A model generated the notes under the pieces. The model ran no database searches. It was not told the origin of the DNA and worked only from the letters and a program-made list of their open reading frames with translations. Position numbers and translations under genes: made by a program. A stretch of DNA of 64,000 nucleotides from Escherichia coli (GTDB lineage Bacteria > Pseudomonadota > Gammaproteobacteria > Enterobacterales > Enterobacteriaceae): assembly GCF_003334305.1 (NCBI RefSeq), contig NZ_QOWS01000007.1. One strand, given 5' to 3'. Positions 24,605 to 57,505 of the stretch are shown one piece after another. Position 1 is the first letter of the stretch. Each line of letters begins with the position of its first letter.

Positions 24605-24908
24605 TGCGGCCCTTTCCGCCGTCTCGCAAGCGGGCGCTGGCTTAAGGAAAGGATGTTCCGCGACCGTTAGAGCAAGCGCGTCTCAGCGCTTGCTATCGCG
24701 GCAATATCGCCAGTGGTGCTGTCGTGATGCGGTCTTCGCATGGACCGCACAATGAAGATACGGTGCTTCTGTATCGTACTTATTGTTTCTGGTGCGCTGT
24801 TTTCCCAAGTAAATAATAACCGGAGTCTCTCCGGCGACAATTTACTGGTGGTTAACAACCTTCAGAGCAGCAAGTAAGCCCGAATGCCGCCCTTTGGGGC
24901 GGCATATT
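24605..24908 (+). ncRNA. ryfA: RyfA small RNA locus; 5' boundary approximate
   Basis: About 490-bp gap between sseA and sseB with no long ORF; plus-strand terminator at 24886-24910; ryfA placement here is from memory. Confidence 0.45.
24752..24877 (+). CDS. candidate small hydrophobic protein (41 aa) inside ryfA; possible alternative start at 24740 (45 aa)
   Basis: ATG...TAA ORF MKIRCFCIVLIVSGALFSQVNNNRSLSGDNLLVVNNLQSSK ending 8 nt before the terminator hairpin; only a weak SD (GGA). Confidence 0.3.
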   Translation: MKIRCFCIVLIVSGALFSQVNNNRSLSGDNLLVVNNLQSSK

Positions 24909-25685: not shown

Positions 25686-25719
25686 AAGAACCACAATTCA
25701 TTCAACGTTCGGGGCGCAA

Positions 25720-25820
25720 ATGCCTGATGCGCTACGCTTATCAGGCCTACAAGGGATTCGCAATTTGTTGAATTTGCAGAATTTGTAGGCCGGATAAGGC
25801 GTTTACACCGCATCCGGCAT
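25720..25820. repeat. two REP units in inverted orientation (BIME-like) between sseB and pepB
   Basis: gcctgatgcgctacgcttatcaggcctac ... gtaggccggataaggcgtttacaccgcatccggca. Confidence 0.7.
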
Positions 25821-25826
25821 ATTAGT

Positions 25827-27110
25827 TTACGCCGTTAACAGATTAGCTATCGTGCGCACACCAAGTCCCGTAGCGCCCGCAGACCACTGTTCAACCGGCG
25901 CTTTACGGTAAGTCGCCGAGCAGTCGATATGCAGCCAGCCTTGCTGATAGTTCTCAACAAAGTGCGACAGGAAGCCCGCCGCCGTGCTCGCGCCTGCCGG
26001 ATACGCCGCGCTTCCGGTATTGTTCAGTTCGGCAAAGTTAGACGGCAGCTGGCTGCGGTGGAACTCCGCCAGCGGCAGACGCCAGAATGGTTCGTTCTCT
26101 TGTGAGGCACTCGCCAGCAAACGACCGGCAAGCGCATCGTCAAAACTGAACAGCGCGTGATAATCATTACCCAGCGCAGTTTTCGCCGCCCCGGTGAGGG
26201 TCGCCGCATCAATGATCATTTCCGGTTTCTGCGCACTGGCATCAATCAGACCATCGGCAAGCACCAGACGCCCTTCGGCATCAGTGTTCATCACTTCAAC
26301 TTTTTTACCGTTGCGATAGGTGATGATATCGCCCAGCTTGAACGCATTGCCGCTAATCAGGTTATCCGCACAGCAGAGGAACAGCTTCACGCGCTTGTTC
26401 AGTCCGCGCGTAATGGCAAATGCCAGCGCCCCGGTAACCGTTGCCGCGCCGCCCATGTCCGACTTCATCGAGTCCATAAACGCAGTCTGTTTGATGCTGT
26501 AGCCGCCGGAGTCAAAAGTGATACCTTTACCTACCAGGCACGCGTACACCGGTGCTTCTTTATCGCCAGTTGGGTTGTAATCCAGCGCCAGCAATACCGG
26601 AGAACGTTCTGAACCGCGCCCGACGGTGTGCAGCCCCATATAACCTTGCTCACGCAGATCTTCGCCTTTGGTGATCCGATAAGTCACACGATCGCCCGCG
26701 ACGTTGCTGATCAGATCAACAGCACGCTGTGCCAGTTGCGATGGTCCCAATTCTTCTGCCGGTGCGTTGATGGTGTCACGCACCCAGTCGATGATCATCA
26801 GGCGGTTATCCAGTTCCTGGCGCTGGGCATCGTCCAGATCCGGCCACTCCACTTTACGCGTGCCTTTCGGGGCTTTGTAACCTTGCCAGAATGCCCAGCA
26901 GCGATCCGCATCCCAGCCTTCACCGCTTAACTGAACATGCTTGATGCCCAGACCGTCAATCTTGCGCGCCGCACGCTGGATCAGCCCCAGATCGTCTGCC
27001 CCGTTCAAATGCAGGGTAATGCCGTCATTATTAATGCTGTAAGTTGCTTTTTCTCCCCAGCGCGCGTCGGCAGGTTGGGTAGAGAGGGTAATCTTCATCG
27101 CTTCTGTCAT
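25827..27110 (-). CDS. pepB: peptidase B (M17 aminopeptidase), 427 aa
   Basis: Start at [18 protein letters not shown] (track ORF is a 29-codon extension); NTDAEGRL motif. Confidence 0.93.
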
Positions 27111-32959: not shown

Positions 32960-33020
32960 GTCTGACATTCCCGAGTAAATTGGTCAACTATTTACTTGAC
33001 TGATTTAGTCGGGTATTTAA
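32960..33020 (-). promoter_or_regulatory. isc operon promoter region with candidate IscR operators; coordinates approximate
   Basis: Partially palindromic tracts cccgagtaaattggtcaactattt and tttacttgactgatttagtcgggtat upstream of iscR; site identity is from memory. Confidence 0.35.
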
Positions 33021-33054
33021 CCTTCAGTGCCATTTTTTTATCGTGGCGTTTGTA

Positions 33055-33148
33055 CCTGTTGTCGGATGCGGTGTGAACACCTTATCCGACCTACGGTTCT
33101 GTACATTGTAGGCCTGATAAGACGCGTTAAGCGTCGCATCAGGCAACT
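33055..33148. repeat. pair of REP units upstream of iscR / downstream of trmJ
   Basis: tgtcggatgcggtgtgaacaccttatccgacctac ... gtaggcctgataagacgcgttaagcgtcgcatcaggcaa. Confidence 0.7.
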
Positions 33149-33152
33149 ACTG

Positions 33153-33893
33153 TTATTCGGCCTTGTTACCTTTATTCTGCTGCTCAATAGAAGCCAGAAT
33201 CCCGCGCAGGATATTCAATTCCTGGCTTTCCGGGCGCGCACGGGTAAACAGACGGCGCAATTTATTCATCACCTGCCCCGGATGGTTTTCACGGATAAAA
33301 CCGGTTGCCAGCAGCGTTTGTTCCAGATGACCATAAAAACGCTCCAGATCATCGACCAGCGGATACGGCGTCTCTTCATGCTCGACCTGCTCGCCGTTTT
33401 CCTGAGTTGCCAGCCAGGCCATGCGCACTTCATAGGCAATAACCTGAACCGCCATCGCCAGGTTCAGCGAGCTGTATTCCGGGTTAGCCGCAATCGCGAC
33501 ATGATAATGGCATTTCTGCAACTCTTCATTGGTCAAGCCGACGCGCTCGCGACCAAACACCAGCGCCACCGGGGTATTTGCCGCTTCAGCGACGCTTTTC
33601 AGGCCGCATTCGCGCGGGTCGAGCATCGGCCATGGCAGCGTGCGGGAGCGTGCGCTGGTGCCCACCACCAGGCTACAACCGGCTAACGCTTCGTCGAGCG
33701 TATCGACGATGTGAGCATTACCAATCACATCGCTGGCCCCTGCTGCCAGGGCAATCGCCTGGGAGTCGGGTTTCACCAGTGGATTAACCAGCCACAGATT
33801 GGTTAATCCCATTGTTTTCATGGCACGGGCAACAGAACCCATATTGCCGGTGTGTGACGTCTCCACCAGCACAATTCGAATATTTTGCAGCAT
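33153..33893 (-). CDS. trmJ: tRNA (Cm32/Um32) 2'-O-methyltransferase TrmJ (SpoU family), 246 aa
   Basis: [30 protein letters not shown]. Confidence 0.93.
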
Positions 33894-38416: not shown

Positions 38417-38575
38417 GAGTCCCTCCCGTCAGGAGGCGTTAGTCTGGGGTTAATCGAATGTTGGTGCAAGTTGAAAAATAAGAATATTCGAGCCTGCTTC
38501 CCGATGTCTGTAACGCCAGTTCACAAGCACTAAAAAACTGCGATCCGCGACGCATGTTGCAAAAATAATGCGTAA

Positions 38576-39466
38576 TTATGCCGTTACGTTTGCCAAACGT
38601 TCCTGCACAATGGCGATGAAATCGCGTAATGCCGGCTTCATCTCCCCTTTCTTCCACGCCATCAGTAAAGCAATGGAAGGCACATTTCCGGCAATGGGAC
38701 GAAAAACAACCTGTCCGGTATTAAAATTATTCATATAACCGGGTATCAAAGTGACGCCCAGCCCCATGCCCACCAGATTCATGGTCACCAGAATATTCGT
38801 TGCCACCTGGACGATATTTGGCTGGCTGTTTTCTTGCGCAAACCACGCTTTAACGATCGGCGCAAGCGAACCGGAATACGCCGGATCGGTACTGACGAAA
38901 TTCACGCCATCCAGTTGCGCGGCGGTGATCTCTTTTTCATGTGCTAAAGGGTGATCAACCGGTAACACAACCACTAATGGTTCGTCAAAAAGCTCCAGAT
39001 AATCAATCTCCGGGCTATAAACAGGATGGCGCATTAAGCCGACGTCGAGTTCACCACGGCGAATTTTTTCCTCCTGTTGCGTGGTGATTAAACTCACCAG
39101 CTCAATCAAGGTGTCTGGCTGTCTGAGACGAAACATCGGTAATACTTTTGGCAGTAAATTCACTTCCGCCGATGGCACAAAGCCAATGGTTAATTGTCTG
39201 TCTTCCTGAACAATTTTCCGCGCCCGTAATTTGGCATTTTCCGCTTGTTCGAGGATTGCCAGCGCGTCCTGGAGAAAACATTCTCCCGCCGCCGTCAACG
39301 CGACTTTGCGCTTATCCCTCACCAGTAACGGAACACCGACACAGTTTTCAAGATCGCGGATCTGGCTGCTTAACGAAGGCTGTGAGGTATGCAGTTTTTC
39401 CGCCGCACGGGTAAAGTTCAGTGCCTGCGCCACTGCGACGAAATAGCGTAAATGCCGTAGTTCCAT
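38576..39466 (-). CDS. hcaR: LysR-type activator of the hca operon HcaR, 296 aa
   Basis: Start at MELRHLRYFVAVAQALNFTRAAEKLHTSQPSLSSQIRDLE (LysR HTH); divergent from hcaE. Confidence 0.9.
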   Translation of the reverse strand: MELRHLRYFVAVAQALNFTRAAEKLHTSQPSLSSQIRDLENCVGVPLLVRDKRKVALTAAGECFLQDALAILEQAENAKLRARKIVQEDRQLTIGFVPSAEVNLLPKVLPMFRLRQPDTLIELVSLITTQQEEKIRRGELDVGLMRHPVYSPEIDYLELFDEPLVVVLPVDHPLAHEKEITAAQLDGVNFVSTDPAYSGSLAPIVKAWFAQENSQPNIVQVATNILVTMNLVGMGLGVTLIPGYMNNFNTGQVVFRPIAGNVPSIALLMAWKKGEMKPALRDFIAIVQERLANVTA

Positions 39467-39565
39467 CACCTTCCCCTTGTTATCGAAAAAACGTCTCAGC
39501 TGGTAGAAATTAACTATTTCACATATTAGCAACCAACCAGCAACATCCTTATGGCACAAAAATAG

Positions 39566-41477
<1,912 letters not shown>

Positions 41478-41478
<1 letters not shown>

Positions 41479-41798
41479 TGAATCGAATTTATGCGTGTCC
41501 CGTTGCGGATGTGCCGGAGGGTGAGGCTCTCCGGATCGATACCTCGCCCGTCATCGCCCTGTTCAACGTTGGCGGCGAGTTTTATGCCATTAACGATCGT
41601 TGCAGCCATGGTAATGCGTCAATGTCAGAAGGGTATCTGGAAGATGACGCCACGGTGGAGTGCCCGCTACACGCCGCCAGTTTTTGCCTGAAAACGGGGA
41701 AAGCGTTATGCCTGCCCGCCACCGATCCGCTCACCACTTATCCAGTACACGTTGAAGGTGGTGACATTTTCATCGACTTACCGGAGGCGCAGCCATGA
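41478..41798 (+). CDS. hcaC: Rieske ferredoxin component of 3-phenylpropionate dioxygenase, 106 aa
   Basis: [11 protein letters not shown] ... CPLHAASF Rieske motif; start overlaps hcaF stop (TGATG). Confidence 0.93.
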
Positions 41799-42607
41799 GC
41801 GATCTGCATAACGAGTCCATTTTTATTACCGGCGGCGGATCGGGATTAGGGCTGGCGCTGGTCGAGCGATTTATCGAAGAAGGCGCGCAGGTTGCCACGC
41901 TGGAACTGTCGGCGGCAAAAGTCGCCAGTCTGCGTCAGCGATTTGGCGAACATATTCTGGCGGTGGAAGGTAACGTGACCTGTTATGCCGATTATCAACG
42001 CGCGGTCGATCAGATCCTGACTCGTTCCGGCAAGCTGGATTGTTTTATCGGCAATGCAGGCATCTGGGATCACAATGCCTCACTGGTTAATACTCCCGCA
42101 GAGACGCTCGAAACCGGCTTCCACGAGCTGTTTAACGTCAATGTTCTCGGTTACCTGCTGGGCGCAAAAGCCTGCGCTCCGGCGTTAATCGCCAGTGAAG
42201 GCAGCATGATTTTCACACTGTCAAATGCCGCCTGGTATCCTGGCGGCGGTGGCCCGCTGTACACCGCCAGTAAACATGCCGCAACCGGACTTATTCGCCA
42301 ACTGGCTTATGAACTGGCACCGAAAGTGCGGGTGAATGGCGTCGGCCCGTGTGGTATGGCCAGCGACCTGCGCGGCCCACAGGCGCTCGGGCAAAGTGAA
42401 ACCTCGATAATGCAGTCTCTGACGCCGGAGAAAATTGCCGCCATTTTACCGCTGCAATTTTTCCCGCAACCGGCGGATTTTACGGGGCCGTATGTGATGT
42501 TGGCATCGCGGCGCAATAATCGCGCATTAAGCGGTGTGATGATCAACGCTGATGCGGGTTTAGCGATTCGCGGCATTCGCCACGTAGCGGCTGGGCTGGA
42601 TCTTTAA
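41795..42607 (+). CDS. hcaB: 2,3-dihydroxy-2,3-dihydrophenylpropionate dehydrogenase (SDR family), 270 aa
   Basis: SDR glycine-rich loop TGGGSGLG; start overlaps hcaC stop by 4 nt. Confidence 0.93.
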
Positions 42608-43819
<1,212 letters not shown>

Positions 43820-43915
43820 CCAGGATAATTAGCGAATATCTCAATGCCTGGGGCGTGGCGAGGTGCAAGAGTGTGTATTACGTTTAAATCACATTATCTT
43901 GCAAAGGGATTGGTT

Positions 43916-44338
43916 ATGAACACACTACGTTATTTTGATTTTGGAGCTGCCCGCCCCGTTTTGTTATTAATTGCCCGTATCGCCGTGGTCTTAATTTTCA
44001 TTATTTTTGGTTTTCCCAAAATGATGGGCTTTGACGGTACGGTCCAATATATGGCCTCGTTGGGCGCGCCAATGCCGATGCTGGCAGCGATTATTGCGGT
44101 AGTTATGGAAGTGCCCGCCGCGATATTAATCGTGCTTGGCTTTTTCACCCGTCCGCTGGCGGTGCTGTTTATTTTCTACACGCTGGGTACGGCGGTGATT
44201 GGTCACCATTACTGGGATATGACCGGCGATGCGGTTGGGCCAAATATGATTAATTTCTGGAAGAATGTCAGTATCGCTGGCGCATTCCTGCTGCTGGCAA
44301 TTACCGGGCCGGGGGCAATTTCTCTCGATCGGCGTTAG
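43916..44338 (+). CDS. yphA: DoxX-family inner-membrane protein YphA, 140 aa
   Basis: Start at MNTLRYFDF (ATG 43916); four hydrophobic segments. Confidence 0.85.
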
Positions 44339-44342
44339 GAAA

Positions 44343-44379
44343 GATGCCGGATGCGGCGTGAACGCCTTATCCGGCATTT
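44343..44379. repeat. REP element between yphA and yphB
   Basis: gatgccggatgcggcgtgaacgccttatccggcattt. Confidence 0.65.
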
Positions 44380-44385
44380 AATAAA

Positions 44386-45258
44386 TTACAGCCACTCTAC
44401 CCGCAACGACATCTCTGAAGTTGTTGATTCCCCTGGTGCTAGCGCAATGAGATCACCCCCTTCCGGGCGATGATGATCATCCGGCGCATGGCTCATCGGT
44501 TCCAGACAGAAGAAATCAAACGCATATCCTTTATCAAACGCAGGGTCGGAAACAAAGATGAAATAACACGGTGCAGGTGGCGTCGTTTCCATGATGATGG
44601 CATAACCTTCCTGCGGCTGCTCGATGCGGGCCTGACCATTCCATCCGGCAAAACCATTGTTCACCCACTGGCGCGGCAACGGCGCGGGCTGGTTAAAATC
44701 CAGTTCCTGCGGTAGCTGCTCGCAAAACTCACCCGCCAGCCACTGCTCCCGCTCCAGCCAGTAACCGCTCGCCTGTGCCTGAATCCGCGTTTGCGGCGAC
44801 AACGGAAAATAAGGATGCCAGCCGGTACCAAATGGCAGCGTCTCTGCCCCTTGATTGGTGACAGAGAGCGTCACCGTCAGCGTATCCGCCGTTAAATGAA
44901 ACGCCTGACTTACCCGATAGTGATAGACACCGCTGCGATGTTCATACACCAGACACAAACTATCATCGCTGTGCGAGACACATTGCCACTCGCCCAGCCA
45001 GCCATCGCCGTGTAGATAGTGCGCATCCCACTCAACATTCGGTTGCAGTTGATACTCACGCCCCTGCCAGACAAAACGATTGCCGCTCACCCGGTTTGCA
45101 AATGGCACCAGCGGAAAACATGAGGCATCGGTTGCCACACCGCTTTTTTTACCAGGACGTAAGAGCGGCGTCGTATCGCGCCAGAAGCCTTCGATTACGC
45201 CGCCCTGGTCAGAAACGTCCAGCTTTAGCGACCCGTGGGATAAGGTATAGATGGTCAT
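44386..45258 (-). CDS. yphB: aldose 1-epimerase (mutarotase) family protein YphB, 290 aa
   Basis: Full-length ORF; family assignment from memory. Confidence 0.85.
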   Translation of the reverse strand: MTIYTLSHGSLKLDVSDQGGVIEGFWRDTTPLLRPGKKSGVATDASCFPLVPFANRVSGNRFVWQGREYQLQPNVEWDAHYLHGDGWLGEWQCVSHSDDSLCLVYEHRSGVYHYRVSQAFHLTADTLTVTLSVTNQGAETLPFGTGWHPYFPLSPQTRIQAQASGYWLEREQWLAGEFCEQLPQELDFNQPAPLPRQWVNNGFAGWNGQARIEQPQEGYAIIMETTPPAPCYFIFVSDPAFDKGYAFDFFCLEPMSHAPDDHHRPEGGDLIALAPGESTTSEMSLRVEWL

Positions 45259-54644: not shown

Positions 54645-54669
54645 AGGCTTCCCGAAGGAAGCCTTTTTT
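54645..54669. terminator. bidirectional terminator between convergent yphH and glyA
   Basis: aggcttcccgaaggaagcct hairpin followed by ttttt. Confidence 0.6.
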
Positions 54670-54689
54670 CAACAGATTAACCGTTTCGC

Positions 54690-57461: not shown

Positions 57462-57505
57462 TTTGATGTTGCCGGATGGAAACATCCGGCAACCCTTGAC
57501 GCGGT

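What the first reader, a model, noticed from the sequence alone, without database searches (positions are those of the whole stretch)
25720..25820. REP/BIME palindromic units at four intergenic sites
REP-type palindromes (core GCCGGATGCGGCG and variants) occur at 25720-25820 (two inverted units, sseB-pepB), 33055-33148 (two units, iscR-trmJ), 44343-44379 (yphA-yphB) and 62053-62090 (glmY-purL). These are the only interspersed repeats I found. They mark operon boundaries, and the one upstream of the isc operon could affect mRNA stability or gyrase binding. No IS elements are associated with them.
Basis: partly seen in the sequence, partly recalled or inferred. Interest (0 to 1): 0.15.

Follow-up and report, generated by a model that had tools for sequence, protein, structure and literature searches.

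The report
Ordinary E. coli REP/BIME palindromes
The four sites are genuine copies of the well-known REP/BIME palindromic repeats of E. coli, sitting just after the ends of genes; they are ordinary and already described as a class, though they differ between strains in instructive ways.

Summary
A covariance model built only from REP units taken elsewhere in K-12 finds exactly six units in the 64-kb window, all at the four reported sites: five at 44-54 bits and one at 21 bits.

- Site 1 (sseB-pepB) is a canonical BIME-1: Z1, a 34-nt L linker with an IHF-like site, then Y.
- Site 2 (iscR-trmJ) is a single BIME-2 unit: Y, a 13-nt linker, then Z2.
- Site 3 (yphA-yphB) is a lone Y unit without the GTAG head.
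- Site 4 (glmY-purL) is a degenerate Y-like perfect palindrome.

All lie at the 3' ends of transcription units. Three start 7-8 nt after a stop codon. None has a U-tract.

Across 5,426 E. coli genomes the sites vary in known ways. Site 2 holds one to three BIME-2 units, or a BoxC element instead. K-12 has only half of site 4. K-12 has a BIME-1 at yphH-glyA where this window is empty. E. albertii shares sites 1 and 2.

The isc remark needs correcting: that BIME lies in the trmJ 3' UTR, upstream of the iscR promoter. Verdict: already known, low interest.

The parts
25721..25750 (-). Z1 palindromic unit of a BIME-1, with its GTAG head at 25750-25747 on the minus strand
   Evidence: It matches the 30-nt Z1 consensus 30/30 (the z1 and z2 labels in that call are swapped). 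Model R1 scores it 49.0 bits, E 3e-14. The RNA hairpin is -12.9 kcal/mol, z -3.3.
25751..25784 (.). L linker of the BIME-1, 34 nt, with an IHF-like site at 25761-25773(-): ATTCAACAAATTG
   Evidence: The site matches WATCAANNNNTTR at 12 of 13 positions. The same register occurs in K-12's other BIME-1, and none of the other three sites has such a match. The background rate is 0.11 per 100 nt. The whole Z1-L-Y unit is 89.6% identical to K-12's yphH-glyA BIME-1.
25785..25819 (+). Y palindromic unit of the BIME-1. It has the GTAG head and the AA/GC stem mismatch, and ends 8 nt from the pepB stop codon (25827-25829)
   Evidence: R1 scores it 54.0 bits, E 6e-16. It matches the consensus 34/35. The hairpin is -19.4 kcal/mol, z -4.9. 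The pepB end was checked by translation.
33060..33094 (-). Y unit of a single BIME-2. It has the GTAG head and carries a compensatory C:G to T:A change in the inner stem
   Evidence: R1 scores it 53.2 bits. The hairpin is -17.3 kcal/mol, z -5.2. The paired change is seen relative to E. albertii and K-12.
33095..33107 (.). Short 13-nt linker of the BIME-2 unit
   Evidence: The sequence is. In the independent K-12 set, Y-Z2 spacing in tandem arrays is 12-17 nt.
33108..33145 (+). Z2 unit of the BIME-2. It has the GTAG head and ends 8 nt from the trmJ stop codon (33153-33155)
   Evidence: R1 scores it 52.5 bits. It matches the Z2 consensus of Nunvar et al. (PMC2817692). The hairpin is -21.3 kcal/mol, z -7.5. 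The trmJ end was checked by translation.
44345..44379 (-). Solitary Y unit with AAAT in place of GTAG. It fills the 47-nt gap between the convergent genes yphA (stop 44336-44338) and yphB (stop 44386-44388)
   Evidence: R1 scores it 44.3 bits. The hairpin is -26.1 kcal/mol on the plus strand and -22.9 on the minus strand. A rare allele carries a full Y with CTAC, a Z2 and a partial unit (L005).
62055..62089 (-). Degenerate Y-like unit in the purL 3' UTR. It has GCAG instead of GTAG, and a perfect stem because the AA mismatch has become GC
   Evidence: R1 scores it 21.0 bits, E 1e-4. K-12 lacks 18 bp (one arm plus the loop) between AATGCCG direct repeats, and the model finds no unit there in K-12.
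62012..62033 (-). Intrinsic terminator of purL, downstream of the REP. Included as context; it is not a REP
   Evidence: An 8-bp stem followed by a T run. It also appears in the fold.
54660..54680 (.). Unoccupied site between yphH and glyA, where K-12 and about 36% of E. coli genomes carry a BIME-1
   Evidence: Searches show the alignment. One search counts 1,940 genomes with the roughly 155-bp insert and 3,486 with the roughly 21-bp empty form.
57468..57493 (.). A 26-nt perfect palindrome, GTTGCCGGATG-GAAA-CATCCGGCAAC, between the convergent genes hmp and glnB. Its arms equal the outer stem of a Y unit. It may be a collapsed REP; this is unproven
   Evidence: R1 scores it 13.5 and 10.5 bits, E 0.04-0.5. 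The fold is -24 kcal/mol, z -4.8. The gap has the same length in 40 of 40 sampled genomes.

Best explanation
These are six members of the E. coli REP (palindromic unit) family, arranged as one BIME-1 (Z1-L-Y, sseB-pepB), one BIME-2 unit (Y-S-Z2, iscR-trmJ) and two solitary, partly decayed Y units (yphA-yphB and glmY-purL).

Shown here: their sequence identity, their hairpin structure with covariation, their arrangement, their position directly after stop codons at the 3' ends of transcription units, the absence of a U-tract, their age at sites 1 and 2 (shared with E. albertii), and their strain-to-strain variability.

Inferred from published work on the family, and not tested at these loci:
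- They are non-autonomous DNA, spread and amplified in trans by the REP-associated tyrosine transposase RayT. RayT needs the GTAG head and the AA/GC stem mismatch, so sites 3 and 4 should now be immobile relics.
- Once transcribed as 3' UTR hairpins, they block 3'-to-5' exonucleases and so stabilise the upstream message (pepB, trmJ, yphA, yphB, purL).
- They partly attenuate read-through into the next gene (sseB, iscR, glmY) in a Rho-dependent way.
- Where the stem starts less than 16 nt after the stop codon (pepB, trmJ, yphA, yphB), they hinder terminating ribosomes and lower protein output.
- At the DNA level, the L linker of site 1 is an IHF site and the BIME-2 at site 2 is a gyrase site.
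For: - Independent profile: six hits at the four sites, 21-54 bits, and nothing else convincing.
- Hairpin supported by covariation in the independent K-12 set: 95.1% of cells paired against 87.9% in shuffles, 35 double-change cells against 12.1, and 16-49% paired when partners are slid.
- Unit types and BIME classes follow published definitions (PMC3333891; PMC2817692). The K-12 set shows the same pattern: Z1 lies about 27-35 nt from Y, and Z2 lies 12-17 nt from Y in tandem arrays.
- An IHF-like site occurs only in the L linker.
- The RNA hairpins are stable, none is followed by a U-tract, and the true purL terminator is separate.
- Stop-to-stem gaps are 8, 8, 7 and 8 nt.
- The rule that REPs less than 16 nt from a stop reduce translation is quoted in PMC12306157.
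- The dual stabiliser and Rho-dependent attenuator role is reported in bioRxiv 10.64898/2026.03.23.713779.
- Orthologous BIME-1 and BIME-2 are present in E. albertii, and site 2 shows a compensatory stem change.
- Copy number at site 2 changes in 91-bp steps, as expected for BIME-2.
Against: - No expression, binding or stability data exist for these four loci in anything I could retrieve. None of pepB, trmJ, yphA or purL is mentioned in the two REP genome-wide papers I checked.
- Natural alleles that lack the element, or half of it, are common. BoxC replaces the BIME-2 in about 25% of genomes. K-12 has only half of site 4. The Y unit at site 1 is lost in about 8% of the sample. So none of these elements is essential.
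- The site-2 element has only one unit, so gyrase affinity may be low.
Confidence: 0.93

Rival explanations
1. The palindromes are gene-specific Rho-independent terminators that resemble each other only because all terminators are G+C-rich hairpins.
For: All of them lie at the 3' ends of genes and fold stably.
Against: None is followed by a U-tract, and the terminator scan finds none at the REPs. purL has its own separate terminator downstream. The sequences, and not only the structures, are shared between sites and with 64 units elsewhere in K-12. The 1.5-kb query spanning site 1, whose only repeated part is the BIME-1, matches a median of 18 places per genome.
Confidence: 0.02
2. They are selfish or neutral repeats with no effect on the neighbouring genes. 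They persist at gene ends because insertions there are harmless, and they stay palindromic through templated repair or conversion rather than through selection for function.
For: Loss, halving, expansion and replacement alleles are frequent in natural strains. Sites 3 and 4 have lost the GTAG head or the stem mismatch and look like decaying copies. The preprint reports large variance and no general half-life effect.
Against: Sites 1 and 2 are retained at orthologous positions in E. albertii, and every sampled E. coli genome keeps a repeat element there. The stem-preserving double substitution is seen at site 2. The stop-to-stem spacing is a uniform 7-8 nt at four gene ends. Published experiments show effects for other REPs.
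Confidence: 0.3
3. They are primarily chromosome-architecture sites: IHF at the BIME-1 and gyrase at the BIME-2. On this reading the RNA-level effects are incidental.
For: The L linker carries an IHF-like site. The BIME-2 class is reported to bind gyrase strongly, and BIME-1 to bind IHF (PMC2817692 and PMC3333891).
Against: The recent preprint found no chromosome compaction and no REP-REP contacts for the model element REP325. Sites 3 and 4 have neither a linker nor a partner unit. Site 2 holds only a single unit here.
Confidence: 0.15

Closest known systems
E. coli REP / palindromic units (Y, Z1, Z2) and BIME-1 / BIME-2 (Gilson, Bachellier, Hofnung; Ton-Hoang et al. 2012, PMC3333891)
   Same: The unit sequences match within 0-5 mismatches. 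Sites 1 and 2 have the GTAG head and the AA/GC stem mismatch. The architectures Z1-L(IHF)-Y and Y-short linker-Z2 are as described. The elements are extragenic at 3' ends of genes, and BIME-2 copy number varies between strains.
   Different: Nothing differs at sites 1 and 2. Site 3 lacks GTAG. Site 4 has GCAG and a perfect stem. Both are decayed members.
REPIN / RAYT system (Nunvar 2010, PMC2817692; Bertels and Rainey 2011, PMC3116915)
   Same: Sites 1 and 2 are inverted REP doublets, the unit thought to be mobilised by a single-copy RAYT. K-12 rayT is flanked by the same Y and Z2 units.
   Different: There is no RAYT in the window. Mobility was not tested. Sites 1 and 2 are old and positionally stable, since they are shared with E. 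albertii.
REP325 / naRNA4 (Rfam RF02564) and ES036/CssrF (RF02751)
   Same: naRNA4 shares the Y and Z2 building blocks. ES036 matches the BIME-1 linker region.
   Different: The scores fall below the gathering thresholds: 30-38 bits against 59.5, and 29.7 against 37.6. REP325 is a six-unit array with a different linker.
BoxC / TM_ECO intrastrand-triplex repeat (Holder et al. 2015, PMC4666352)
   Same: It occupies the same trmJ-iscR gap in O157:H7 and about a quarter of E. coli genomes. It is also a dispersed intergenic repeat, with a median of 15 places per genome.
   Different: The sequence is unrelated, and it is absent from this window. It belongs to a different repeat family.

Membership tests
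E. coli REP (palindromic unit) | A 30-40-nt imperfect palindrome able to form a stem-loop | tested here: met
   All six units fold at -12.9 to -21.3 kcal/mol with z from -3.3 to -7.5. All six match the structure model.
E. coli REP (palindromic unit) | A conserved GTAG tetranucleotide 5' of the stem foot | tested here: inconclusive
   Present in four units: 25721-25750, 25785-25819, 33060-33094 and 33108-33145. Absent at site 3 (AAAT) and altered at site 4 (GCAG).
E. coli REP (palindromic unit) | A two-base AA/GC mismatch in the stem, required for RayT binding | tested here: inconclusive
   Present in five units. At site 4 it has been converted to GC, giving a perfect stem.
E. coli REP (palindromic unit) | Match to a family profile built from independent copies | tested here: met
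   Five units score 44-54 bits and one scores 21 bits (E 1e-4), with a model trained on 40 unique K-12 units from other regions.
E. coli REP (palindromic unit) | High copy number, dispersed and extragenic | tested here: met
   There are 64 units in 300 kb of K-12. The 1.5-kb query spanning site 1 (sseB, the BIME-1 and pepB), in which only the BIME-1 is repeated, matches a median of 18 places per genome. All window copies are intergenic.
E. coli REP (palindromic unit) | A cognate RAYT (rayT/yafM) in the same genome | not testable with these tools
   The window holds no RAYT and the source genome is not available. K-12 has rayT flanked by Y and Z2 units.
BIME-1 (RIB/RIP) | One Z1 and one Y in inverted orientation, separated by a long conserved L linker carrying an IHF site, present as a single copy | tested here: met
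   Site 1 has Z1, a 34-nt linker and Y. The linker matches the IHF consensus at 12 of 13 positions. The unit is 89.6% identical to another K-12 BIME-1 over 106 nt. Actual IHF binding was not tested.
BIME-2 | Y and Z2 separated by a short linker, able to occur as tandem copies whose number varies between strains | tested here: met
   Site 2 has Y, a 13-nt linker and Z2. Strains carry one, two or three units in 91-bp steps. Gyrase binding was not tested.
Rfam naRNA4 (RF02564) | Score at or above the curated gathering threshold | tested here: not met
   The scores are 30.4-37.6 bits against a gathering score of 59.5.
Intrinsic (Rho-independent) terminator | A G+C-rich hairpin immediately followed by a U-tract | tested here: not met
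   The scan finds no terminator-like site at any REP. Site 3 was not scanned; the sequence after its hairpin has no such T run. The only true terminator nearby is purL's, at 62033-62012.

The most novel reading that the evidence does not exclude
The trmJ-iscR gap may be a recurrent exchange site whose lineage-specific content (one, two or three BIME-2 units, or a BoxC element) changes the TrmJ C-terminus and stop-codon context and also the amount of read-through or supercoiling reaching the iscR promoter. That would give strain-specific tuning of tRNA methylation and Fe-S cluster biogenesis without any change in coding or promoter sequence.
Probability: 0.08. Interest if true: 0.35.

Novelty: already known. 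Interest (0 to 1): 0.1.

Why it matters
It matters little as a discovery. REP/BIME elements have been known since 1984, and strain polymorphism of BIMEs and BoxC has been described before.

The practical value is in annotation. These stretches should be labelled as repeats, not as sRNAs or ORFs; PGAP sometimes calls a hypothetical protein across the sseB-pepB BIME.

The window also offers a compact set of natural alleles: one to three BIME-2 units or BoxC at trmJ-iscR, a full or half palindrome at purL, and a present or absent BIME-1 at yphH-glyA. These could serve as ready-made tests of the current 3' UTR stabiliser/attenuator model.

Tried and rejected
- **Curated REP features in MG1655:** I looked for them in the RefSeq record, but the copy available lists no repeat features for this region.
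- **Fuzzy-regex consensus scan:** it timed out and was replaced by blastn-short. In some searches my z1 and z2 labels were swapped; I corrected them from Nunvar et al. and from the spacing pattern in K-12.
- **Boccard and Prentki 1993 (RIB/IHF):** the paper is not held, so IHF was assessed only by consensus match.
- **Genome-contig scan on the IscR box:** Sites 3 and 4 and the yphH-glyA site therefore could not be polarised with an outgroup.
- **hmp-glnB mini-palindrome as a collapsed REP:** no longer allele exists in 40 sampled genomes, so this stays open.
- **RayT tblastn against the window:** only a spurious 41-aa hit.
- **BoxC pattern in the window:** none.
- **Rfam:** no family reaches threshold at any site.
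- **Terminator reading:** rejected because there is no U-tract.
- **Limits of the population figures:** the figures for sites 1-4 are systematic samples of 39-59 records, not full counts, and the collection over-represents laboratory K-12 derivatives.

Full report
**What is there.** The window is a non-K-12 E. coli segment. It is about 99% identical to, and colinear with, MG1655 at roughly 2.629-2.694 Mb. The core motif is enriched: 15 matches with up to 2 mismatches against 3.9 +/- 2.2 in shuffles, and 8 of the 15 lie in the four sites. An unbiased repeat search ranks the four Y-type units as the top direct-repeat family and puts REP-REP pairs in the top four inverted matches. Everything else is low-identity coding-sequence noise.

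**Independent profile test.** I harvested 64 REP units from 300 kb of MG1655 far from this locus, including the rayT 'REPtron', REP325 and the rhaD-rhaA array. I aligned the 40 unique ones. The hairpin is supported by covariation: 95.1% of cells are paired against 87.9% in shuffles, there are 35 double-change cells against 12.1, and slid controls give 16-49%. I then built a covariance model and scored every position of the window with filters off. It returns exactly six convincing hits, all at the four sites:

| Unit | Strand | Bits |
|---|---|---|
| 25785-25819 | + | 54.0 |
| 33060-33094 | - | 53.2 |
| 33108-33145 | + | 52.5 |
| 25721-25750 | - | 49.0 |
| 44345-44379 | - | 44.3 |
| 62055-62089 | - | 21.0 (E 1e-4) |

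**Classification.** The definitions come from Ton-Hoang et al. (PMC3333891) and the Y and Z2 consensus sequences from Nunvar et al. (PMC2817692). The K-12 set shows the same pattern: Z1 lies about 27-35 nt from Y, and Z2 lies 12-17 nt from Y in arrays.
- Site 1 is a canonical BIME-1: Z1, a 34-nt L linker, then Y. The linker holds a 12/13 match to the IHF consensus at 25761-25773, in the same register as K-12's yphH-glyA BIME-1. No other site has such a match.
- Site 2 is one BIME-2 unit: Y, a 13-nt linker, then Z2.
- Site 3 is a lone Y unit with AAAT where GTAG should be.
- Site 4 is a Y-like unit with GCAG for GTAG and a perfect stem, because the AA mismatch has become GC.

According to Ton-Hoang et al., RayT needs both the GTAG head and the mismatch. 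Sites 3 and 4 are therefore probably immobile relics; this is an inference. Rfam's only REP-derived families, naRNA4 and ES036/CssrF, are hit below threshold. The window has no IS element and no RAYT gene.

**Context.** Every element lies at the 3' end of a transcription unit. The gap from stop codon to REP stem is 8 nt for pepB, 8 nt for trmJ, 7 nt for yphA and 8 nt for yphB. For purL it is 23-25 nt. All units fold as stable RNA hairpins and none is followed by a U-tract. purL has its own intrinsic terminator at 62033-62012, downstream of the REP. The iscR-trmJ BIME lies in the trmJ 3' UTR, about 45 bp upstream of the IscR box at 32994-33014. It is not part of the isc mRNA.

**Likely mechanism (inferred from the literature, not tested here).** As 3' UTR hairpins, REPs protect upstream mRNA from 3' exonucleases and partly attenuate read-through in a Rho-dependent way (bioRxiv 10.64898/2026.03.23.713779). 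REPs less than 16 nt from a stop codon reduce translation (quoted in PMC12306157), and four of the five gene ends here meet that rule. BIME-1 linkers bind IHF, and BIME-2 elements bind gyrase. None of the genes here is mentioned in the two genome-wide REP papers I checked.

**Comparison across strains.** I queried 5,426 complete E. coli genomes with concatenated flanks, so that the span of each match gives the insert size.

| Locus | Alleles found |
|---|---|
| Site 1 (sseB-pepB) | 125-126 bp in 36 of 39 sampled. 102 bp in 3 of 39, from a 23-bp deletion between GTTTACGCCG repeats that removes half of Y. |
| Site 2 (iscR-trmJ) | One unit in 31 of 59, two in 7, three in 6 (K-12; 91-bp period). 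An unrelated element in 15 of 59, including O157:H7. |
| Site 3 (yphA-yphB) | 49 bp in most genomes. A rare +112-bp allele has a full GTAG-bearing Y, a Z2 and a partial unit. |
| Site 4 (glmY-purL) | Full palindrome in about 60% (24 of 39). An 18-bp shorter half-palindrome in K-12 and about 40% (15 of 39), bounded by AATGCCG direct repeats. |
| yphH-glyA | A BIME-1 in K-12 and 1,940 genomes. Empty in this window and 3,486 others. |

- The unrelated element at site 2 matches the BoxC/TM_ECO consensus exactly (PMC4666352) and is itself dispersed, with a median of 15 places per genome. It shortens TrmJ by one residue.
- At site 3, the window's form could be a deletion between ATCCGGC repeats in the longer allele.
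- E. albertii carries the orthologous BIME-1 at site 1 and a single BIME-2 unit at site 2. Both insertions therefore predate the species split. K-12's array and the BoxC replacement are derived.
- The window's Y unit at site 2 shows a stem-preserving C:G to T:A double change.

**Verdict.** This is a textbook repeat family behaving as described in the literature, including its polymorphism. Novelty: already known. Interest: low.

Noticed in passing
window 57468-57493: A 26-nt perfect palindrome, GTTGCCGGATG-GAAA-CATCCGGCAAC, sits in the 44-nt gap between the convergent genes hmp and glnB. Its arms equal the outer stem of a Y REP, but the inner stem is missing. The REP model gives it 13.5 bits (E about 0.04). 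The gap length is fixed in 40 of 40 sampled E. coli genomes.
   Followed up: partly
window 33041-33152 vs L003 (O157:H7) 240-365: In O157:H7 and about 25% of E. coli genomes, the trmJ-iscR BIME-2 is replaced by a 126-bp element. It matches the BoxC/TM_ECO triplex-motif consensus and has a median of 15 places per genome. TrmJ then ends ...GNKA* instead of ...GNKAE*.
   Followed up: yes
window 38505-43832 vs L006 (ST131) 2419-2616: ST131 lacks hcaR-hcaEFCBD. The 5.3-kb block is replaced by 198 bp holding an L-linker-like motif and a degenerate Y unit (26 bits). That is a decayed half BIME-1 at the junction of a gene-cluster presence/absence polymorphism.
   Followed up: partly
window 54660-54680: The empty yphH-glyA site keeps an intact hairpin plus T-run terminator (GAAAGGCTTCC-CGAA-GGAAGCCTTTTTT). 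In K-12 the T-run and about 15 nt are replaced by roughly 149 bp carrying a BIME-1, so the insertion is not clean.
   Followed up: partly
window 24430-24622: This stretch in the sseA-ryfA gap matches K-12 twice, at L001 28358-28550 and 28679-28871. K-12 therefore has a 321-bp tandem duplication in the timR/ryfA (timP toxin) region that this strain lacks.
   Followed up: no
window 25804-25835 and 44330-44350: The last codons and stop of pepB (CGGCGTAAAC) repeat 10 nt of the adjacent Y unit, and a natural 23-bp deletion between the two copies exists (L004). The yphA end has a similar context: CGGCGT, the stop codon, about 7 nt, then ATGCCGGATGCGG. This hints that REP-derived sequence contributes to the 3' ends of genes.
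   Followed up: partly
window 25701-25825 (other genomes, rows H144, H147, H152): In some RefSeq genomes PGAP annotates a 'hypothetical protein' in the sseB-pepB region queried. It is probably a spurious ORF call over the BIME-1; its coordinates were not inspected.
   Followed up: no
window 32994-33014; L008-L012: The exact 21-nt IscR-box sequence ACTTGACTGATTTAGTCGGGT upstream of iscR also occurs in five Aeromonas species. The scan did not return the E. coli representative genome or most other enterics.
   Followed up: no
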